Assembly: GCA_964057225.1 (NCBI GenBank)
Contig: OZ059899.1
Span: forward strand, 7,564,001-7,628,000
From: Auanema rhodensis
Taxonomy: Eukaryota > Animalia > Nematoda
Length of the DNA: 64,000 bases
Direction of reading: 5' to 3'
Part shown: piece after piece, positions 44,159 to 63,439 of the stretch
Layout of the letters: every line of letters starts with the position of its first letter
How positions within the stretch are numbered: the stretch's first letter is position 1
Translations under genes and position numbers: made by a program
Notes under the pieces: generated by a model
The model's database searches: none
What the model was told of the DNA's origin: nothing
The model's input: only the letters and a program-made list of their open reading frames with translations

Positions 44159-46614
44159 ATTGAATATAATATAGTGTTTAAAGTTACCTAGTATATAGAG
44201 ATATAGGTGTTGTTGGTTGTCCTTTAACCCGAGGTGGTCGAGTTATTTTCTGACATGTAATAACATGAGCACATATTCGACGAATATCAGGATTAATAAG
44301 GCAGTAGAAGTAGAAATTTAATGCAAATTTAGTAAATTCAAGAAGATTCACAATAGCTCTCACAATCTAAAAATGAATAATAATAGAAAATATTGGCAAA
44401 AATGCCTTTTATTACTTGAAAATCAAAATTATTTGAACGATTATCAGCAACCAACATAGTTAATGGTGCTGCTGGTATAGTACATAGGAAGAAAACTATA
44501 ATAATAGCAAATAGCAGAATAAATAATCGTTTTTCTTCCTGAAAATAGTTTCATATGAATACATAATGCTTGTTGAAAATTGTTGAAAGACCTTTTCACT
44601 TTTCTCGTATACAAATCGTTTTTGTGAATTCGATAGTCGTTCCATTCGATCTTTTTTTGTGTTTCTAAAAAAAATTTTAATTATTTCTATCTATAAATAA
44701 GAAATAAATTATAATTACCTATAAGTTATTAATATTCTAGCATTAAAGAAAGCTACAAGAAAGAATGGAAAGATTCGACTGATTAATTCTCGAATAGCCT
44801 CATAGATTACAAACCAATCTGGTCGTATTGTGTCACATACTACATATGGGCAAACATCTTCGGGTATTAAATGCTAAAATATATATTTTAAATTAAAATT
44901 AAATATTATATATTATAATACCTGTTCAATGTAATCATGTAAATTATGTACATTTTTCTTAATTGCCCATGGAGCATATATAACAAAGTTGAATAAATAT
45001 GCTAGACAGAATAAAAGAAAGCATATTTTACTAAAATAATTTTATTATTATATAGATAATAAATGAAAGTGAAACATACCGAGACCTCATTCCATATGCA
45101 AAAGGTTTACATACTGCAATATATTGAGACAATGTTAGAAAAACAACAATCCAAACGGAGGCACCCATTAATCCATTTGCCTATAAATAAAAATAAATTT
45201 GTTTAATATTATTGTATATATCTTCAAATATTTGTAAGTTCTTAAATATATATATATATATATATATATAGCTATATATATATACACGTACATACATATA
45301 TATGTGTTCACATTATTTTTTACTATACAAAGAGTTTTATATCAAAACTCAATCAAATACATCGGAGGAAATATGTTTAAATTCAAAATGAAATAAGGAA
45401 TTTAGTCAAGTAGCTGGATTGATTTTAGATTTCTTCTCATCTATAAATCACTTCATGATGAAACTACGTTATACAATTTATTAAATAAATGAATACGTAT
45501 ACTTATTTTAAAAAAATTGTTTGTTTATAAGATATAATAGTTTTAAAATATTTGAATACTTACTAGAGGAAAACCAATATGTGCATAGAAAAAAGCTGAA
45601 AAGGATGAACATGCTCTAAGATCCAACAACCACATAATCATTGGTATCACAGAAATGTGTGTGAACTGTAAAATAGAAATTAATTAATCAGAATTACTGA
45701 TAGTTTTACTTTTTTTGTTTTTTCAATTTCTCTACATATCTCTCTCCCTCTCTACATATCTCTCTCTCTCTCTCTCTACATATATATCTCTCTCTCTCTC
45801 TCTCTACATCTCTCTCTCTCTCTCTACAACCCTCTCTCTCTCTACATCTCTCTCTCTCTCTCTGTATATATGTATATTTTTTACTCTCGTTCACTATATC
45901 TAATCTCTATCTTATTTCAATGGAGAAGAGTATGAGTTCCTCTTCAATATCAGTTAAAGCCATTGCAAACTTCTGGCCTACTTGGCCTCAAAGTCAAGTT
46001 TTCTCAATTTTAAGCAATTTCAGTGTGATTGTACTTCTTGAATTTTGCTGCTTGAGTTTAGAAATGAGGCTTTACCCTCCAATGTCTATGCTTAATAAGA
46101 TCAGCAGTGCTTGCGCTTCAGCAAACCAAATGAAGAGCCAGTCAAAAACACAACGTAGTGTAAACGAGAGAATTGAATTAGTTACGAGAATACGATGAAA
46201 CATACCATGTTCCAATAAAACAAAAGAAGAAGAATTAGATTTACAGTAAAGATTATATGCATAATAATTTTTATATTATATCGTATTGAACGTTAACTAC
46301 ATACCAAATCTGTCATAGCTAGAAGTGTGAGATAAGTATAGATTATTGAACTTTTGCGTAGTAATGGATGAGTTAATGTTATAACAGTTAGAACATCACC
46401 CACAATACCAAATGTTATAATTAACGGAGCTATATAAGCATATGTTATCTGAAACAAGTGATTTTGAAGAAGTATGTACTTCAATAACTTCACAAACCAT
46501 ATTAAGATTTGACAACGGCATCTCAGTAGTACGATCATTGAGAACAGATATCCAATTAACAGAACCATTATGTGCTGATCTTATAGTTTCGCACAGAACA
46601 TGACTTGAAGGCAT
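43536..46614 (-). CDS. Class A neuropeptide GPCR (FRPR/FMRFamide-receptor-like)
   Basis: APLIITFGIVGDVLTVITL, IYTYLTLLAMTDL, ANGLMGASVWIVVFLTLSQYIAVCKPF, EEKRLFILLFAIIIVFFLCTIPAAP, NLLEFTKFALNFYFYCL. Confidence 0.9.
44126..44154. repeat. (TA)n microsatellite
   Basis: Perfect TA run. Confidence 0.9.
45729..45863. repeat. (CT)n microsatellite interrupted by ACAT units, intronic
   Basis: Directly visible; it generates the spurious RE- and SL-repeat ORFs in the track. Confidence 0.95.
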
Positions 46615-47750: not shown

Positions 47751-50700
47751 CTAGTTCAATTGTAAAAATAGTACAGACACGTTGTCTTTACTTTGACGTT
47801 CAAGGGCTAATTGTACCAGATATGTGGAAATCCGATGCCAATCCTGCTTGCCTTCCTTTGATCTGAAAAATAAAGTATTGAAGTTTCAATTTCATTTAAA
47901 CCAAATGTTTTTTTGAACGTCCTTAGAACTTACTTAAGATATTCGTTAGCTAACTTTATTGCTTCTGAGTTACTTACAACGTCCCAAAAGCCGTCAGTTC
48001 CCACAATCAGAAATCTGAAAAAGAAGTTAAAAGATTTGAATGGATAAACAAGAAGATGTTGGCATGGCGGGCGTTAACTACGACAAGTTTGAACTATCTT
48101 CGAACGAAAATAACGAACTTCAATGGTTTTTTATGTAAATCAATGCGTTGTACGTCGGGTCGAGCTGTCAGAACACCGAGACGTTTCAGAAGTGTATCCC
48201 CAAAAGCCCTGAAATAAGAAATAATGTAACACAAAATAACAAATAACATGAAGTTTAAGGATATCAAGCTTTTTCGTTTTTTGCAATCAACATCAATACA
48301 AAAAAAGTAAAACATGAAAGCTACAACAGTGAACAAAAATTTTTTTTTTAATCTGGAAATTTTATTAACTTGGCTCAATGAAATATATTTATAAGTAGTA
48401 GTATATCGGTGCTAGCCGGACCACCTAATCATCCTTATTTAAAAATACTGCATTTCAAACATTTTTCGTAACAAAACAACTATTTTTTTTCCATTTAAGG
48501 TTTTCAAAGACTGAGAGTCTAGCTCGCATGACACCCAAAAAAGACTATTTTTAACAGTTTTCTAACGTTTTTCGACGCCCCAATAAGCCAAAAACCTTGA
48601 GCCATAAATTGCGCTACGCTAAATCACCCTTCCACTCTAGCCCAACGCGTTTGCGTGCGAATAGATCAACTGGAGCAAACGTGTTGATTCTCATTCTACG
48701 TGAATTAATTCCATTTTTGTGTGCATTTATTATTCTTCATTATTCTCTCAGTACGCCATTGTTCTCATCAAAATATTCTACCAATAGTCATTACGTCTCA
48801 ATTTGCGTGGTAAACCGACGCATGTGGATAGTACGCGAACTTTCCGTTAACGAGCTCAAAAGCAATCAAATCGTGTGCTTCAGAGAATGCTTGTACGACA
48901 GCCTAAAAAGCAAAACTAGTTCAAAAAAATGAAAAAGAACCTCGTATTCGGTTCAATTACGTTGTACAAGGTAATTTTTGTTTTTCAATTGGGTGTAAAT
49001 CAACAACGCATGCCGACGTGGAAGAACGGAATCGTATCGGAAGAATATGGTATGTCTAATTTTTTAACTTTACAGATATTAACTGTTTGATCATTTAATA
49101 AGGGGCTTTTTATTTAAATTCTGTTAACGCAATTTATGACTCGTGTCTAAAAATTTGTGATAATTGAGAATTATGTTCACACACCCTTGTTTGCATCATT
49201 TCCACGGTTTTCCTAACAACTTTTCCAACTTTCTCTCTTCTTCTATCGTGTAAAACTCTATTCTTTTTTCTTATAAGCTTACAACTAAATAACTAATAAT
49301 AATCTTTATTTACTAATAAATGCCTGTTTAGATGACGATGGAACGATTGACAGCGAAGACACTCGAGGCCTTACTCTTCACGACGTCCAAACCAAATGAC
49401 AACTTGCACTTGTGCGTGGTAGCAATCAACGAGAAACACGCCATTTCTTTCCAAGATGGTCCCCATTCGATGCTCAAGAAAGGCGATAAAATTACCTTGT
49501 ACAACGTAATTGAACCGACTATTCAATACGAGGTTCTTTTTCATTTTTTTGAACTAGTTTTGCTTTTTAAGCTGTCCTACAAGCACTCTCTGAAGCACAC
49601 TATCTGATTCCTTTGAGCTCGTTAACGGAAAGTTCGCGTACTATCCACATGCGTCGGTCCCAATGTTTTGTGGTGAAAGTTACAAGCAATTGGGTGTATA
49701 TCAACAACGCATGTCGACGTGGAAGGACGGAAGCGTTTTGGAAGAATATTCTTTGTCTAAGTTTTTAACTTTACAGATATTAACTGTTTGATGCAGGTGG
49801 ATTTTACGTGGGAACTTCTCATGGAGAACGTGATGACTCGGGCTCTGGCGTCTTTGATTCGTCTGGCCGCATACTTGGTATTTCTGTTGGCAAGAAAATC
49901 TTCACTTTCGACGATGCCTTTCGGTGAGGTGGCTGATCATCAGCCGGACACGAAAATAATCAGTTCTGCCACCATTTCGGTAATCATGGGCATCGTCGAT
50001 TGAGATGTAAGTAGATTTATTTAGATATTTCGTTTAATTGTTATGTTTCATCCTTTTGTGCCGCAACAAAAGTACGTTCGAATGGAAATAATTTTGGAGA
50101 TCTTTTACTAGCCTTGAAAACGGAAATTTTGTTTTGTGAATAATTTTCTCGTTTCTATGTAAACTCTTTTCGTATGGGTCGAATAAGCTTTTATTTCTGA
50201 ATTGTGAAAATGGTATAAATATCTAAAAACACCTCACAAGTCGTTGATTTTTAATTATTTTACAAGGAACTCTCAGGTCTTTTCGGAAGGTGATCATTTA
50301 ATAAGGGGCTTTTTATTTAAGTTCTGTTAGCGCAATTTATGACTCGTGTCTAAAAATTTGTGATAATTGAAGGTTTTTGGCTTATTAGAGCGTCGTAAAA
50401 CGTTAGAAAACTGTTAAAAATAGAAAGCATCTTCTTTTGGGTGTCATGCGAGCTAGACTCTCAGTCTTTGAAAACCTCAAATTTCATAGACTTCTACGAC
50501 CCCAGGGGATCTAACGAAGGACTTTGATTCTACCAACATTTTTGAATCGCTTTCACAATTTATTCGATAAAATAATTGTATTTATAAATGAAAAAAATAC
50601 TGAAGCTGTGTCAGTAAGTTTCCAAAAACATTCTTTTTTAGAAGACGCAATGCAAGCAAATCAGACGTTCTAGGAATCAATGATTTTGATATTCACTTCA

Positions 50701-52093
50701 TGAAAGGATCTTCTTCGGATTCACCTGTGAATTATAGTGAAGAAGATCTAAAGAAAATGAAAAGAGATAAAGTTCGTAGAAAAGCGGTAATGATTGGAAG
50801 TGAATTGAGAAAATATATCATCAAATCTAGAGAAATCCAAACTATGAGAAAACAAGAAATGATTGATTTCATTATGAAGTTTAAAGACGTGTTTACAGAT
50901 TAAACACTAGAAACTTCGTTTTGATCTGAGTGTGTGAATTCACAAACACTTCTAGAAGGCTTGCTTTCGCTGATTCTGGAATTTGGATTTTTTCTTTAAA
51001 TTTTTTTTCTATATAAAACGGAAGCCTTGACTTCTTCAAGAATTTGAAAAAGTAATATTTTCTACTCTAGAGTAGCTTAACATAACAAGAAAGTTAAACA
51101 ATCAGATCAACTTCGTAAGGACGTTAGAAGAATATATAAAGCTAAAAAATTAATAACTAATGATCAGATAACAAAAATGAAGGTGGAAGAAATGAGATAA
51201 TTCATACATACAGAAGTATTCTACAAGTGATACGGAAGATAAAGATAATAAAATTTCCTTAAAAAACTGCTTATAGGAATATGAGTGATAAAAATATTTT
51301 ATCGAACATTTTCCACACAATCGAAACTAATTGCATTCCTTTTTACAATACTCTTGTAAAAACGAATCTTACTTCTTTCTAAAAAAAAAAGAAGAAGAAT
51401 TTAGTATTAAATGATATCTTCAAAGATTGTGATGTTTGAACAATGTTTCGTCTGGAATGTAATAAAGCTTTTAGATCTAGTAGTGATATACATAAATATG
51501 AATATATTTCTTTCGACTTTGACGTCACAAGTGAAATTCAAATTCTAAGCTCTGGAGAAAATAGAAATACGTTTTATCAGAATATCATTCAACGTTTGAT
51601 AAATAAAGAAATAAAGTAAAAAAAAATCAGTCAAAATACTCAAGTGCTTTGACTTCCCAAAAATCGGAGGGATTTGGTCAAGTATAAGATGAACATTCAG
51701 ATTATTTTATAATTAATGCTTACTTCTCACTTTTTTTCAAAAAAGTATTGTAAATGACTGACTTCAGAGAATGAAAATGTGTCTAAAACGGCTGAGATGT
51801 CGAAATGGTATTGAAATGATATTATAATCCTTCTCTACTATACTACTTTTATACATAGATACGTTCGTATCTTAAAAAAAAGTCTGATATCATAAAGATG
51901 AAGATTCAATAAATCTTTTTTTTTTTAAATTTTGACTCATAGATTTATGGATATATGGCAATCAATACAGAATTCAGATTAAATTGTAATCAATCCCCTC
52001 TGGGCAAAAAGAGCATGAGTGAAAATGAGGAAAGTTATATGTAAAATTTTTTTTCCAAAAGATAGGGAACAAAAATTGAAAGTTTATTTCAGA

Positions 52094-52129
<36 letters not shown>

Positions 52130-55100
52130 AGTTTAGAGAATGAAATAGAAAATTCCCAAACTTGAATGAAATTAATCACAAGATTTCATTAAACACAGAT
52201 AAAAGAAGAGACTTTAAATTGCAAACCAAGGTTAATAGTGAATGATGCTTGGAAGTGATAAGTCCATGAAGAAGAATTCAGAATTTAAATTTCTGGAAAA
52301 GGAGTCATCAAGAGCTGAAGTGCGAGAGAGACATGGGGGCAAAAGAAAATATCATCTTTGTAATCACATATTTCTCTTTTTTATATTTTTATTTCAACTC
52401 TTTATATCTATTTTTCTTTTTCACTCTTATTCGTTTATACCAATATAATATATAATTTGTATGAAAGAAATAAGAAGAGTGACAAGCATTTTGGTATAAT
52501 ATAATAGAATATAATTAGTTAAACCTTGATTATTTGATCCAAAACCATCAGTTAAATCAAATCTTGAAAACAATACTAATTGTCACTATAGTTTTTAAAT
52601 AATTTGTTTCTGTTGGGTGTTTAAAAAACAAATCGCTTTGATATTTGGAAAAATAAGAGTTGACAGATTATTAGTTAAGATATGACAAAAGTTTTGAAAT
52701 TATCAGATTAAAAATTTCATATACTAAGTTTTAATATAATAATAAAGGTAAAGGTTTGAAAAACTAGTAGAACACAGATATTATCAGTTTATAAAGAAAA
52801 AAAGTTTGGGTTAAACTGATTTAATAATAAGTAATATATATCATGTGGTATAGAAATTGTTTATTTCCCCTCTTCTCAATCAATTTTTTTAAAATTTGAC
52901 AAAATGTTTTGTCATTATCTAATAAAACTATAGTTTATTCCTTTTATTTAGACTTTGAACATGATGTTAGCTTTCTATTAGTGAGATGTTTAAACACGAA
53001 AACAACAAAACTGAAATGTCAGCTGGAACATTGTGAATTCAAAAAATTTCATCTCAACTTGATTATTTGAAGATGTTGAAGTGAGCATGAAAAAAAAAGA
53101 ATGATTTCAAAAGAATATCAGCTGAAAACAACTTTGCTTGCTATATTGTAGTACATTGTAAGGCCTTCTCGTAGTGACCAAATGTTGGGAAGTTGGTATA
53201 TTCAAGCTGAAGCCCGGATAAGTTTCTGATTAATTTGTATGTATCATGAAATAGCTGACGTCATCATGAGCAGTAATAATGTAGACAAGAAATTTTGAAG
53301 AAGACCAATGAGACAATGAACATCGATAATATGAGATGACAATCACACTACAACCTTGATATGTTTTGAAAAAAAAAGTAAAAGCTGAGTAAATTATAAG
53401 AAATGAATGTAAATTCAAACTTCTTGATGTATATATTTATATATTATATTAAAAGCAGCTCAAAAACTTGTCATCAAGAAGTTAACGAAAAGAAAAGAAA
53501 ACGTGGGGTAATTCAAAGTCAAGAAAATATTCCATTTGAACAGTTCAAAACATTAAATAGAAAAAGCTTTAATGATGAAGATTCTGAAATAAATGGAAAC
53601 AGTGAATGAAGAGATTAGAGACGAAATACTAGAAATAGAACTGCTGTTTTACATGCAAGACTATAATACGAAATGAAAATGATTCTGCCATTGTTCTGCA
53701 TTTGAGTATACGACGTCATGACAAATAAAATACGTGAAATTCAAAAAAAATACAATGAAAGTATATATACTTTCATATATATATATAACTGAATGTATAT
53801 AAACTAAATGGTTAAATAATCTATTTGTTGAAGTATTCTATAGATTTGCATAAATTAAGGAAAAAGTTATTGGACATGAGGAAGATGAAGTGAAAATCAG
53901 CTGCTAACAAACGTGCTCCAATTTGGCTCAAGCGAGAATTGTTAAAAAAAAATCCAAAAATACATGAAAAGCTGAAGAGAGAGGTGATTATATAAGATGT
54001 TCATAGGAAAACATTTCTTTCGTTTTTTTCAATTCATAAGGTTTTGATGTTTTTTTCTTTTATTATGTCTTTGAAGCTGAGGAAATGTTGTTAAAACATA
54101 CTGACATATCTGCTGAGTGTGAAGTTTGAATATGATTAGCTCAACTAATTTCAAATGTATAAAATGAATACATATCTAAGACAAAATACCACAAAATATG
54201 ATAAAACTTTAAAATAGTTGGAATAGAAGGAGAGACAAGACTGGACAGGACGAGAAGGTTGAAACGAAGAAACTTATTTATAATAGTATAAAAAGGCTAT
54301 TTCTCATATGTACTCATAACATCTCAGCAAAAATTTCAATAAAAACTGCAATGGAAGATGAGAAAAAATGGAGAAAATATACTATTTCTAATAATTGACT
54401 TTTCATAGCATTTTTATATTTTGAAAACCAAAATAGTTTTGCATCACTTCGATGAAAAAAAAAATTAAAATCTTAGAATAATAATAATTTAATTAATCAA
54501 TTGAACGTTTCAAATCGTTCATCAAGACAAGATCAAGAACCAGTTTGTTTTTGTAAATTATTGGTTTAGAGATCACATAGTAAATAATATATTATATAAG
54601 ATTATATGTAATATAATAATAAAGTATAAAACGTATAATAAAGTAAATAAAAATTTGATCTAAGTAACTGAAAGCATATCATTTCAGAACAAACTTTTGA
54701 AATTCCACTTTGAACTATATAACCTTCTTTTTGTATTTCAAATGATTAAATACCATTACCATGCTAATATAAAACAGAAAAATATTTTTTTAGTAATAGA
54801 AAATAATTCTCTTAATTGTATTTTAGTAAAAAAAAAGTACCTGGATACAGATAAAATGCCTTGAATTCGTGGCGAACCGTCGTCGCAGTCAACAAATCCT
54901 CCTGCGACCTCAACACGCCTTCTTTCTTCTTTCTATAAGTCAAAAAATGTTTGCATATAAAATATAATTTTAATAATAATTCAGAATTGGTTATTTTGGT
55001 TTAATTTTTCTGATTTTATCGACTTTCCTATGATTTTGCTGCAGCTGCTGAAAGCTACATCCTCAGGCTTGAAATGCGATTAAGCAAGTTCAAAAGAGTG

Positions 55101-59973: not shown

Positions 59974-62859
59974 TCACAAGATCGAACACACGGGTGATCT
60001 GACGTGATGAGTAGCTTTGTCCTCTCCTACGCCATCCTAAAATTAAGAAAAAACTTCTTTGCAAAAGATAAATAGATTATTATATAAAATTGAAAAATGA
60101 AAATACTTGGATTTTTAAAAAAATAAATTCAAAGTTGCTAACCTTATTGGCATTTGTATTATTTGCAGTACCATCTTCATTATAAATTGACATATCATGT
60201 AATTCCATATATCCATCAATTGTCTGATCACCAGCTTGAAGAATATTATGAATTATTTGAAATTTTAGAAATTCTAACCTCTAGGTCTAGCACATAATTC
60301 CCATACCGATTTTCGATCATTTCTCTCCAAGAAATATGTATACATAATTCCTTTTCCCTATGTTTATATATAATTATAATAAATTTTAATATAATTTACT
60401 TTAATTTCTGTATTTCCTCTATCAACAAATACAAAACTTGTATTGGCAATTTGACCATTAGCTTTAGCTGGTTCACTAACATGAATCTTACATGGTATAC
60501 CAGAAGCTTCCATTTTATTAGCTACATTTACCGAATCACCAAATAGACAATATCTAAATATTTCAATTTAATTTTTAAAAATTATAATTAAAGACTTTAC
60601 CTCGGCATTTTCATTCCAACAACACCAGCTACCACGGGTCCAGAATGAACACCAATACGAATCTTTATAGGTTTCTGTGTAATAGGTGAAAGAACTAATT
60701 TAGATTCCATTAACATTCCTAAATAATAAAAATTATTTATAAAATTTTATATTATAAATACCAATTGATACATTTAATACTCTTTCACCATGATTTGTAC
60801 AGACTTCTGGTACTCCACCAACAACCATATATGCATCACCAATAGTTTCAACTTTATAAACATCATGCTATAAGATAATATAACAAATTCCTTTCAAATA
60901 AAATAATAAACTTACTAATCCAATTAAACGATCAAATCGTAAATATAAATCATTTAACAATGTTACAACATCATATGGAGTACATAATGCACAAATGTTT
61001 GTGAATGTCACTATATCTGTGAATAGCAATGTACAATCGGCAAATTCGCCTGAAAATTTGATTCAAAATGTTGACAGATTTGCAATGTTCAGCATACTAG
61101 CTTCTATCATCTTTCCCTGACGTAACGAATCGGCTACAGAAGCCGGCATTAGCTCACAGAGCAGCTCATCTGTTTTTTGCTTTTCGACTTCCAATTCCGC
61201 AGCCATACGTTTTAAACTTTTTGTTGTTTCTTCTAATTTTCGACTGAAAATGAAGTTGAAAAATGAAAAGCTAACTCATTAAATTTACTTTAATTCAACT
61301 TGTGTCATACGACTTTGGTTTAACATAATCAAATCTCTTGTGCCATCGTGTCGTTGCATATCACTGATATGAAGATCACGCTCAATCAACTCACGAACTG
61401 TTGTCACATTGACAGATGAAAGATAAAGAATATAATTTCCACCATCAATGAGTATCATTGATCCTTTAAAAAATAAAAATTAAAAATATATTGATTAAAC
61501 ATACCTTTTAGAAGAATTGGTTTTAATTCTTCTTTTTGATTATGAACAATATCACCAATACCTTTTAGTTTAAATATAAATAAACTATTTTTAAAAGCTA
61601 ATATTGATTCATATGAAAATGGAACCTAAAATATAATTCAATTGTTAATAATAAAAATAAAAAATTATACTTCAGGATGTATTAATTCCAAAATATCAGT
61701 AACTCTCGTTTCTTGTTGAACAGCCATTGGATAAGATTTCCGAATAAAATTACCAAAATGCTCAAGAAATAGATCTTTGTCAAAGCATATATGATATGGA
61801 AAAGCTTGTGAGAAGTCATTAGCTGAGATATTGTATGTTGCCTATAGAAATCAATATAATTTATAATAAAATATATATTTAAACTTCATGTTTCTCTATT
61901 TTTGATTCAGCTTTACTTGTAATTGATTTTTGATTACTCGCTATACCAGCTTCAACTTGACTGATCATAAAAACCACGTGTTCCGTAACAAAAGCATCTT
62001 GAATCAAAAATCAAAATAAATTTTTGTATCTAATTTATAGTTAGTTCTAATAATTTTTACCTAAATGTTCTTGTTTACGTTCCTGAACTTTCATTATAAC
62101 TTCAGTATCATATATTCTTCGAGATACTTCCCGTACAACACCTGAATTTCTATTATTATTAGGTTAAAAATTATTTAAGCCATATGATATACGATGCAAA
62201 TAATTTGTAGTATTAACATATTTTGATAAATATGTTTTTAAAGTTATCAACGTGCTTAATAGATCAGTTCATGTTTTAACATCGTATGTGTTTTAAACTG
62301 GTAATGCTGGACAGAAACTTTTTTTTAATTTTCCAGATGCATTTTTAAAAAATCAGTGAATTGATACAACATCTTTCCTTCAATCCTCGCGCGTATTTCT
62401 GAGTTTTATTCGAACATTTTGGCGCCTAGGTTCTCTATCCCGCATTTTCTAGCATTTCTTTGTTCTTTCCATTTGAATAAGAACACGAAAAATAGACAAA
62501 AACGAATTTTCAGAATACGTTTCCCGCTCAGATTGACCTCTCTCCAGCTATGTTCATGTAAGTTTCACGGTTTATATAGAAGCATTCTCATTCCATTGTT
62601 CACGTTTGCTTAACTGAGATTTTTGAAATTATTTATGCTTTAGAACTTATCATCTTATTTTAATCACATTTTGTTTCTTTAATAATTTAAAAGTATTACC
62701 TTTAACTATAGGATATAATCCACTTCTTTTAGAATAATAATGTAAAAGTAATGTTCCATCTATCTGTACTTCACAACGAAAAGATGGACCTCTTAGTTTA
62801 GTTTGATATACAACATGATCAATGAAGTAGTGAAGAGCATCCAACGAATCCAAAAAACC
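59974..62859 (-). CDS. gcy-37: Soluble (gas-sensing) guanylyl cyclase with C-terminal CAAX; 5' H-NOX exons lie beyond the window end
   Basis: [27 protein letters not shown]...[29 protein letters not shown]...[13 protein letters not shown]; [31 protein letters not shown]; ends SPVCSIL*. Confidence 0.88.
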
Positions 62860-63439
62860 CTAAATATACCTTTGTGATAATCAAATATTTCTATTAATAG
62901 TTCTCTCTCTCTTTCTTTCTCTCTCACGTTCTCTGTTTATGAACATTGTACCTCTAATGTTGCCTCCTTCGTTCCCTTAGTCTGTCTAGCCTATAGCCTC
63001 CCCACTCAATCGATCGATGCTGATCTGCACTACACACATTCCAATACAACTATTATTTCTTTGATTTTAATGAAAACTTAAGCGTTTTGAAGCTTTGTTG
63101 TATCGGAAAAAGGGAAAATTTCACATATAGGTTTCTCATCATGCTGATCATCCACATCATGTAGATTTGACGTAGATAACTATGATCACGTTAACAAGTA
63201 ACGTGATCGTAGCTCTTAACTACACTCCCAATTTGGAAGACTGATAGTAAATACCTTTATCAGGTCCCTACTATCTTCTTTTGGGATAATTTCGATAATT
63301 TGTGGGCTTTACACATGATCTCAGCTACGTTCCTAAACGGCTGGAGAAAATGGTTAAAGCCATCCGATCAGTCAATCGACCGAACCAGGCTGTGTCAATG
63401 CGCCGTATCTCATATGCGTGCACGACAAAGTCTCGCTCG

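What the first reader, a model, noticed from the sequence alone, without database searches (positions are those of the whole stretch)
48495..50480. TIR-bounded element whose only cargo is an intron-containing, signal-less chymotrypsin-like protease (wosp-like mobile cargo)
Seen: ~100 bp TIRs (GG...CC termini, TTAA/TCAA flanks) enclose no transposase, only a three-exon gene whose last exon encodes G-T-S-H-G-E-R-(D)-D-S-G-S-G-V-F-D-S-S-G-R-I-L-G-I. There is no signal peptide. Established: nematode wosp proteases are chymotrypsin-like cargo of Mavericks, move horizontally, and gave rise to the msft-1 toxin of a C. briggsae toxin-antidote element. TTAA target sites with RR...YY ends are typical of Kolobok-type elements. 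Inference: this is a small Pack-type vehicle spreading a wosp-like protease, possibly a relic of a selfish toxin module, and apparently not a Maverick (no 6-bp TSD).
Basis: partly seen in the sequence, partly recalled or inferred. Interest (0 to 1): 0.85.

Follow-up and report, generated by a model that had tools for sequence, protein, structure and literature searches.

The report
Dead wosp protease in Maverick remnant
A broken copy of a roundworm protease gene, resembling the cargo of Maverick virus-like transposons, sits in an intron of a host gene, likely inside a collapsed Maverick remnant and not in a spreading mini-transposon, so it is probably one more dead example of a known cargo.

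Summary
The ~100-bp inverted repeats, the TTAA/TCAA flanks and the wosp-like three-exon gene are real. The reading is only partly right.
(1) The gene is dead: two triad positions are lost, there are two frameshifts and both introns have a damaged splice site. Its intact relatives are ~200-aa HtrA-fold proteases, mostly of nematodes.
(2) The full inverted repeat has only these two arms in four runs (depth 1.8-2.2x single copy), so no spreading family is shown. No empty site was seen, but that test was weak.
(3) The interior is a patchwork of duplicated pieces.
(4) Against 'not a Maverick': a 3,454-bp envelope (48394-51847) begins AGTAGT, ends ACTACT and is flanked by a perfect 6-bp repeat (TTTATA). 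This is the published Maverick end signature (chance about 0.2-0.5%). It lacks long TIRs and core genes.
(5) Everything lies in one 6.6-kb intron of a host PP2C gene. Pieces inside the envelope, but not the inner repeat, are shared with another species at about 87% identity.
Best reading: a collapsed Maverick remnant with dead cargo (0.5). Interest 0.3.

The parts
48209..54840 (-). 6,632-nt intron of a host PP2C phosphatase gene that holds the whole locus (cargo is antisense to the host gene)
   Evidence: PP2C Pfam hits on both sides; GILSVS-R / RAFGD exon junction with GT and TTTCAG sites
48388..48393 (.). left copy of a 6-bp direct repeat TTTATA (candidate Maverick target-site duplication)
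48394..51847 (.). 3,454-bp envelope beginning AGTAGT(AGT) and ending ACTACT; candidate collapsed Maverick remnant; arms alike for only 7-9 nt
   Evidence: end motif as published in PMC8097293; extended arm match not significant, 93 of 1000 shuffles
51848..51853 (.). right copy of TTTATA
48493..48598 (+). left arm of inner inverted repeat (TTAA 48495-98, GG at 48499)
   Evidence: single-copy contig
50370..50482 (-). right arm of inner inverted repeat (CC ends 50476, TCAA 50477-80); the 32 nt 50452-50483 have one more exact copy elsewhere in the genome
48623..48657 (.). GC-rich 35-nt motif present in several other contexts in this genome and in the other species; possible promoter or subterminal motif (inferred)
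   Evidence: tables 2, 4, 7, 8
48814..48978 (-). inverted duplicate of 49488-49658 (end of exon 1, intron 1, start of exon 2); 3.7% substitutions
48986..49091 (+). direct duplicate of 49687-49792 (end of exon 2 and intron 2); 9.4% substitutions
49088..49167 (+). direct duplicate of 50291-50370, joined to the previous piece through a 4-nt overlap; its source ends exactly where the right arm begins; 2.5% substitutions
49166..49331 (+). upstream non-coding region of the protease gene, ending in an acceptor-like TTTAG just before the ATG; about 87% identical to a record of another organism
   Evidence: records 5, 13, 27
49332..49532 (+). wosp-like pseudogene, exon 1 (profile positions 1-65); the triad His position (about 49455) is changed
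49571..49750 (+). exon 2; intron-1 acceptor damaged, triad Asp position (about 49601) changed, frameshift near 49610, intron-2 donor (about 49751) damaged
49797..50003 (+). exon 3 with the catalytic Ser motif (Ser codon 49838-40, Gly two residues before it changed); frameshift near 49915-49925
50604..51300 (+). multi-copy AT-rich DNA inside the envelope, with a 99-aa stop-free frame (weak SAP/HeH look-alike only); a part is shared with the other organism at about 90%
   Evidence: SAP cluster 0.79, a lead only; no homologue

Best explanation
A broken wosp-like protease gene lies in an intron of the host PP2C gene, inside a 3.45-kb stretch bounded by AGTAGT...ACTACT and a 6-bp direct repeat, which is likely what remains of a Maverick that inserted here and then lost its core genes. 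Inferred history: (1) a Maverick carrying this protease as cargo, probably received horizontally, integrated at TTTATA; (2) it collapsed by deletion, one break falling within about 12 nt of the left end; (3) repair with template switching copied pieces of the cargo region into the gap, direct and inverted, and the ~100-bp 'TIR' pair is likely one of those pieces and not the ends of a second transposon; (4) the gene then decayed. It now makes no active protease and has no means to move. Shown: the repeats, lesions, intron position, two-arm copy number, end motifs and cross-species sharing. Inferred: steps 1-4.
For: The end motif 5'-(AGT)2//(ACT)2-3' with a perfect 6-bp TSD is the commonest vertebrate Maverick signature (PMC8097293 passages). 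Only 2 such motif pairs enclose the gene within the intron and 1 of 2 has the repeat; 1 of 64 pairs in the whole window has it, and it is this one. Null: 3 of 4164 enclosing pairs, and 3 of 558 possible 6-mer end motifs, carry such a repeat. wosp genes are known Maverick cargo lying next to a TIR, and most nematode Mavericks are pseudogenised (10.1101/2022.07.12.499685). DNA shared with another organism (49166-49390 at about 87%, 50742-50888 at about 90%, 48623-48657) lies inside the envelope, whereas outside it only 45 nt of a PP2C exon match (run X11). The inner repeat has two arms only: core unitig depth 2.06, 2.13, 2.18 and 1.84 x single copy. It is absent from the other organism. Its divergence (3.0%) matches that of the inverted duplicate (3.7%) and of the 80-nt duplicate (2.5%), and its inner edge abuts the latter's source at 50370. 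Lesions. 11 of 16 aligned relatives keep the full H-D-S triad.
Against: The envelope's arms match for only 7-9 nt (extended alignment reached by 93 of 1000 shuffles), whereas Mavericks have long TIRs. No Maverick core gene was found among 71 + 120 frames scanned with Pfam or 10 frames with PHROGs. 48394-48494 is single-copy in run X8, so no sibling left end was seen. I looked for the motif after seeing AGTAGT in the flank, and the motif is documented here for vertebrate, not nematode, Mavericks. The inner repeat does show RR...YY next to TTAA, as Kolobok does. One duplicate (48986-49091) is more diverged (9.4%, p = 0.015 against the other three pooled), so the pieces may not all date from one event. 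The DNA beyond 51300 was not covered by the read calls.
Confidence: 0.5

Rival explanations
1. Nested capture: the Maverick envelope is real, and inside it a genuine non-autonomous TTAA-type (Kolobok-like) DNA transposon enclosed the wosp-like gene, as a MULE did for msft-1; it died before spreading.
For: 100-bp arms at 97% with GG...CC and TTAA/TCAA; Kolobok is defined by RR...YY and TTAA and occurs in nematodes (PMC9587614 passages). Another single-copy locus shares 50350-50394 (5 differences in 45 nt) and a third place shares the 32-nt tip. Single-copy Pack-TIRs are the rule in animals (PMC8277862 abstract and passages).
Against: No other full arm at 80% identity or more (8 of 8 laid records listed for X1 and for X5). 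The TSD is imperfect. The third copy of the tip ends in TCAAATT as well (chance 2.5e-4), which suggests TCAA is not a mutated target site. No transposase is present to assign a superfamily.
Confidence: 0.2
2. Stand-alone dead Pack-TIR: the inner element is a real transposon that carried the protease into this intron, and the outer AGTAGT...ACTACT/TTTATA pattern is chance.
For: The inner repeat is long and clear while the outer one is 7-9 nt; no Maverick gene nearby. A transposase-less, pseudogenised msft-1 copy between MULE TIR fragments is on record.
Against: The outer pattern has a chance level of about 0.2-0.5%. Cross-species DNA also lies outside the inner repeat but inside the envelope (50742-50888). 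No family of arms.
Confidence: 0.17
3. No transposon ends at all: a wosp-like pseudogene and other mobile debris accumulated in a large intron and were scrambled by local duplication; both the TTAA and the TTTATA patterns are chance.
For: Four duplicated pieces with microhomology joints; neither end pattern has siblings.
Against: It needs two coincidences and gives no vehicle for the cross-species sharing.
Confidence: 0.1
4. A working or recently working toxin-antidote element like msft-1/tlpr-1.
For: Family resemblance only (HtrA fold; His-Asp spacing of 36 as in MSFT-1).
Against: Seven lesions in this copy. No second gene inside the inner repeat. No N-terminal ubiquitin-like domain in this copy's pieces or in the 16 aligned relatives.
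Confidence: 0.03

Closest known systems
WASP/WOSP proteases as Maverick cargo in nematodes (Widen et al., bioRxiv 10.1101/2022.07.12.499685; main text parts 1-5 of 7 read)
   Same: HtrA-like fold of relatives (top Foldseek hits DegS/HtrA), intron-containing, GC-richer than its surroundings (44% against 26-32%), patchy spread over Caenorhabditis, Auanema, Mesorhabditis and Panagrellus, non-coding DNA shared across species, His-Asp spacing 36
   Different: No N-terminal ubiquitin-like domain (about 200 aa against 325); Asp-Ser spacing 64 against 72; small residue, not Glu, 17 after the Ser in most relatives; no Maverick core gene within 6 kb; this copy is dead. Not compared directly with named WOSP sequences.
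Maverick/Polinton elements (PMC8097293, passages)
   Same: 5'-(AGT)2//(ACT)2-3' ends and a perfect 6-bp target duplication
   Different: 3.45 kb only, no long TIRs, no pPolB, integrase, ATPase, protease or capsid gene detected
msft-1/tlpr-1 in a MULE, and its transposase-less pseudogenised Chr. V copy (same preprint)
   Same: wosp-type gene between inverted repeats; a dead copy without transposase
   Different: MULE TIRs are 870 bp and enclose a transposase and an antidote; here 100-bp arms, no antidote candidate, no evidence of toxicity or movement
Kolobok superfamily (PMC9587614, passages) and animal Pack-TIRs (PMC8277862, abstract and passages)
   Same: RR...YY next to TTAA; single-copy, gene-containing TIR structure with microhomology joints
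   Different: TSD imperfect, no family of arms, no transposase, no parental TIR element identified

Membership tests
WOSP proteases | HtrA-like chymotrypsin fold | tested here: met
   For relative P0006 (48% identical to the window pieces): AlphaFold2 pLDDT 85.7, best PDB matches DegS/HtrA, E 6e-9, TM 0.63. The window copy itself was not folded.
WOSP proteases | His-Asp-Ser triad | tested here: not met
   Met in 11 of 16 aligned relatives; in the window copy only the Ser remains
WOSP proteases | N-terminal ubiquitin-like domain | tested here: not met
   The 16 aligned relatives start at or near the protease domain; no Pfam hit in the upstream 125-aa frame; a diverged upstream exon cannot be fully excluded
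WOSP proteases | Sequence homology to, and tree position among, MSFT-1 and the 235 named members | not tested
Own tree of 26 rows leaves the window copy unresolved, nearest to C. japonica/C. bovis/C. sp. 36/C. nigoni proteins
WOSP proteases | Patchy nematode distribution with cross-species DNA similarity | tested here: met
   13 of 20 looked-up proteins carry a species name: 11 nematode, 2 Bradysia; about 87% over 225 nt, mostly non-coding, in a run whose main organism lacks the host flanks
Maverick/Polinton | (AGT)2//(ACT)2 end motifs | tested here: met
   48394 and 51847; motif from PMC8097293, documented there for vertebrates
Maverick/Polinton | Perfect 6-bp target-site duplication | tested here: met
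   TTTATA both sides; null 3 of 4164 pairs; no empty site seen to confirm it
Maverick/Polinton | Long terminal inverted repeats | tested here: not met
   7-9 nt only; 93 of 1000 shuffles reach the score; none among the 25 longest of 532 inverted pairs
Maverick/Polinton | Core genes (pPolB, integrase, ATPase, capsid, protease) | tested here: not met
   No hit in 191 frames with Pfam (frames under 40-42 aa near the locus and under 72 aa elsewhere not scanned) or 10 with PHROGs. Hence 'likely remnant', not a filed member.
Kolobok | 5'-RR...YY-3' termini | tested here: inconclusive
   GG...CC if the boundary is set at 48499/50476, but the inverted match runs 6 nt further and a third copy shares the outer TCAAATT
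Kolobok | TTAA target-site duplication | tested here: inconclusive
   TTAA / TCAA, 3 of 4; no empty site in six runs laid, and the four carrier runs show no sequence difference, so the test is weak
Kolobok | DDD/E transposase of the Kolobok type, in cis or in a family member | tested here: not met
   None in the element or the scanned window frames; the rest of the genome was not available
Multi-copy Pack-TIR | Several dispersed copies with the same TIRs | tested here: not met
   Core unitig 1.8-2.2x single copy in 4 of 4 runs; members sharing under about 31 nt would be missed
Toxin-antidote element | Active toxin plus linked antidote; drive in crosses | tested here: not met
   Gene broken, no second gene inside the inner repeat; crosses not testable

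The most novel reading that the evidence does not exclude
A second, independent case of the msft-1 route frozen half-way: a Maverick delivered a wosp-like protease, and a different cut-and-paste superfamily (TTAA-type, Kolobok-like) enclosed it inside the Maverick remnant. That would make hand-over of Maverick cargo to host DNA transposons recurrent, and it would involve a ubiquitin-less ~200-aa branch of the family that still moves between species.
Probability: 0.2. Interest if true: 0.6.

Novelty: new member of a known kind. Interest (0 to 1): 0.3.

Why it matters
As it most likely stands, it adds one more dead wosp-like gene in a Maverick relic, which Widen et al. describe as common. Two side results are useful. 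There is a ubiquitin-less ~200-aa branch of these proteases across several nematode genera. This genome also holds at least two other copies, one nearly matching a copy in another species, which points to recent horizontal exchange worth mapping. If the inner repeat proved to be a real transposon end, it would show that the capture step behind msft-1 has happened more than once.

Tried and rejected
No genome was held, so no genome-wide BLAST; contig depth stood in for it. Summed depth overstates copy number (1911 at a place with 2-3 copies), so my first count of '17-18 copies' for 48623-48657 and 50725-50966 was dropped in favour of 'several'. Exon 3 alone found no homologue (12 candidates). 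The 66-aa right-flank frame found none (31 candidates; atlas best 0.87; viral contigs 0 of 22). No locus with a relative of the protease in viral contigs (could not form a pattern), prokaryote genomes or phages, so the context of relatives is unknown. A 19-nt TIR pattern gave 3 metagenome hits that extend to at most 23 nt: chance. A 19-nt envelope-end pattern gave 2 viral hits that do not extend: chance. The 25-nt internal motif gave 0 viral hits. No Rfam match. A joint 48793-49166 at depth 4.6 in X9 would suggest that the patchwork is a later insertion, but X9 shows chimeric loose ends starting GATC, so I give it little weight. Other TSD lengths at the GG/CC boundary (2-12 nt) gave no perfect repeat, so MULE, Merlin and Harbinger (target lengths recalled) are not supported. 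My first reading of the Asp-Ser spacing as equal to MSFT-1's was a miscount; it is 64 against 72. In one search one piece was in the wrong frame and three columns were mis-numbered; one search corrects this, though its alignment left a gap at the Asp column, which I read. The tree's bootstrap had not settled and does not place the copy. Literature searches listed no paper on a TTAA-type element carrying wosp; the library lacks most subscription papers. Earlier-findings look-ups returned nothing for this locus.

Full report
What is there. Two inverted arms lie at 48499-48598 and 50370-50476 (97 matches, 3 mismatches, 2 gaps), with TTAA before the left GG and TCAA after the right CC. The inverted match continues to 48493/50482. 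Within the window the region matches only itself. Between the arms no stop-free frame exceeds 125 aa, so there is no transposase. The interior is a patchwork: 48814-48978 is an inverted copy of 49488-49658, 48986-49091 a direct copy of 49687-49792, and 49088-49167 a direct copy of 50291-50370. The whole locus sits in one intron, 48209-54840, of a minus-strand PP2C gene.

The cargo. Exon 1 alone found 34 proteins at E <= 0.001 among 1.84 billion representatives (one, P0032, is an unrelated 2519-aa hit). Of 20 looked up, 13 carry a species name: 11 nematodes (Caenorhabditis, Auanema, Mesorhabditis, Panagrellus) and 2 Bradysia records; a profile search added C. bovis, C. sp. 36 and C. auriculariae. 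Ten of 22 scanned hit Pfam Trypsin_2 at E <= 0.01, four above its cut-off. A model of P0006 (pLDDT 85.7) matches DegS/HtrA best, as reported for MSFT-1 (bioRxiv 10.1101/2022.07.12.499685, main text parts 1-5 of 7 and passages; supplements not seen). His-Asp spacing is 36 as in MSFT-1, Asp-Ser is 64 against 72, and the 16 aligned relatives have no N-terminal ubiquitin-like domain. So it works like a WOSP protease family, but membership against named members was not tested. The N-terminus has no hydrophobic stretch.

This copy is dead. The family profile covers positions 1-196 in four separate stop-free stretches. The triad His and Asp positions and the Gly before the Asp-Ser motif are changed, there are frameshifts near 49610 and 49915-49925, and the intron-1 acceptor and intron-2 donor are damaged. 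Eleven of 16 aligned relatives keep the triad. Read with X at each break, the pieces are 48-50% identical to the C. japonica and C. bovis proteins; the tree does not resolve their place.

Is the inverted repeat a family? On the right arm, the 43-nt unitig common to both arms has 2.06, 2.13, 2.18 and 1.84 times single-copy depth in X1, X5, X8 and X9. All 8 records laid for X1 and all 8 for X5 are listed; they are the two arms, their flanks, one other locus sharing 50350-50394 (5 differences in 45 nt), and a 32-nt unitig 50452-50483 at about twice single depth (for X8 8 of 9 and for X9 8 of 10 records are listed). So there are two full arms, and no dispersed family at 80% identity; members sharing under about 31 nt would be missed. 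The third copy of the tip runs on through TCAAATT, which argues that TCAA is not simply a mutated TTAA target, unless that copy came from this locus. No joint skips the element in the six runs laid, but the four carriers show no sequence difference, so they may be one strain and the test is weak.

A larger envelope. AGTAGT begins at 48394 and ACTACT ends at 51847, and TTTATA stands directly outside both. I recalled the motif and then checked it: 5'-(AGT)2//(ACT)2-3' with a perfect 6-bp duplication is the commonest end signature of vertebrate Mavericks (PMC8097293 passages). One of 64 such motif pairs in the window has a 6-bp repeat, and it is the one that encloses the gene. Taking every 6-mer as a possible end motif, 3 of 558 motifs and 3 of 4164 pairs do so, a chance level of about 0.2-0.5%. 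Against it: the arms match for 7-9 nt only (93 of 1000 shuffles), no Maverick core gene was found in 191 frames scanned with Pfam or 10 with PHROGs, and 48394-48494 is single-copy. I put the envelope at about 70% real.

Cross-species sharing. In run X11 the window's own species is present only as traces (depth 2-3), and of the host flank only 45 nt of a PP2C exon align (6 differences). Yet a record at depth 91 matches 49166-49390, mostly non-coding, with 29 differences and 8 gap letters in 225 nt; another matches 50742-50888, and a third 48623-48657. All three lie inside the envelope; the inner arms have no cover. Run X8 shows at least two further copies of the protease gene in the window's species, one sharing 10 of 11 listed differences with the X11 record (list cut). 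This is the pattern expected of mobile cargo exchanged between species, but these runs are mixtures and I could not read the full contigs.

Mechanism. Most likely a Maverick with this cargo integrated at TTTATA, lost its core by deletion, and was patched by template switching. The inner arms (3.0% diverged), the inverted duplicate (3.7%) and the 80-nt duplicate (2.5%) are of similar age, and the source of the last ends exactly where the right arm begins, which fits one contiguous segment 50291-50482 being split and copied in two orientations. One duplicate is older or from a sibling (9.4%; p = 0.015). The rival that the arms are true transposon ends remains open at about 0.37 in total: RR...YY with TTAA defines Kolobok, which occurs in nematodes (PMC9587614 passages), and single-copy Pack-TIRs are common in animals (PMC8277862 abstract and passages). 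A live toxin-antidote element is excluded for this copy by its lesions.

Verdict. It is a new, dead member of a known kind: wosp-like cargo in a probable Maverick relic. Eight literature searches listed no report of a TTAA-type element carrying wosp, so the nested-capture reading would be new if true (probability 0.2, interest 0.6). Overall interest 0.3.

Noticed in passing
window 48209-54840: The host PP2C gene has a 6.6-kb intron; the envelope explains 3.45 kb of it, and the rest (51854-54840, GC about 26%) has no recognised content.
   Followed up: partly
window 50452-50483: A 32-nt piece spanning the inner repeat's tip and 7 flanking bases has exactly one more copy in the genome (depth 1.5-2x in four runs), with unrelated neighbours.
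   Followed up: partly
window 49166-49390 (runs X8-X11): A paralogue in this genome (contig depth about 2x) shares 10 of 11 listed differences with the copy held by the other organism over 49289-49360; the list was cut, so this is a lead for recent horizontal exchange.
   Followed up: partly
proteins P0031, P0011: Two family members are filed under the fungus gnat Bradysia odoriphaga on long contigs (3.7 Mb, 0.86 Mb): either nematode DNA in that assembly or transfer to an insect.
   Followed up: no
proteins P0001, P0016, P0027: Some relatives are tandem fusions of two or more protease domains, with some domains lacking triad residues; 5 of 16 aligned relatives lack the full triad, while a second His three residues after the triad His is invariant in 16 of 16.
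   Followed up: no
window 50604-51619: A run of short plus-strand frames, two with helix-extension-helix-like spacing (my reading by eye), may be one decayed intronless gene; multi-copy with indel variants.
   Followed up: partly
window 1-64000: Ordinary nematode-type host genes elsewhere: SANTA domain (about 1700), Vps52, MgtE, GPI2, RRM protein, mitochondrial carrier, ion channel, GNT-I, bHLH, gelsolin; a GPCR-like gene (44300-46600) and a soluble guanylyl cyclase-like gene (60000-62900) read by eye.
   Followed up: no
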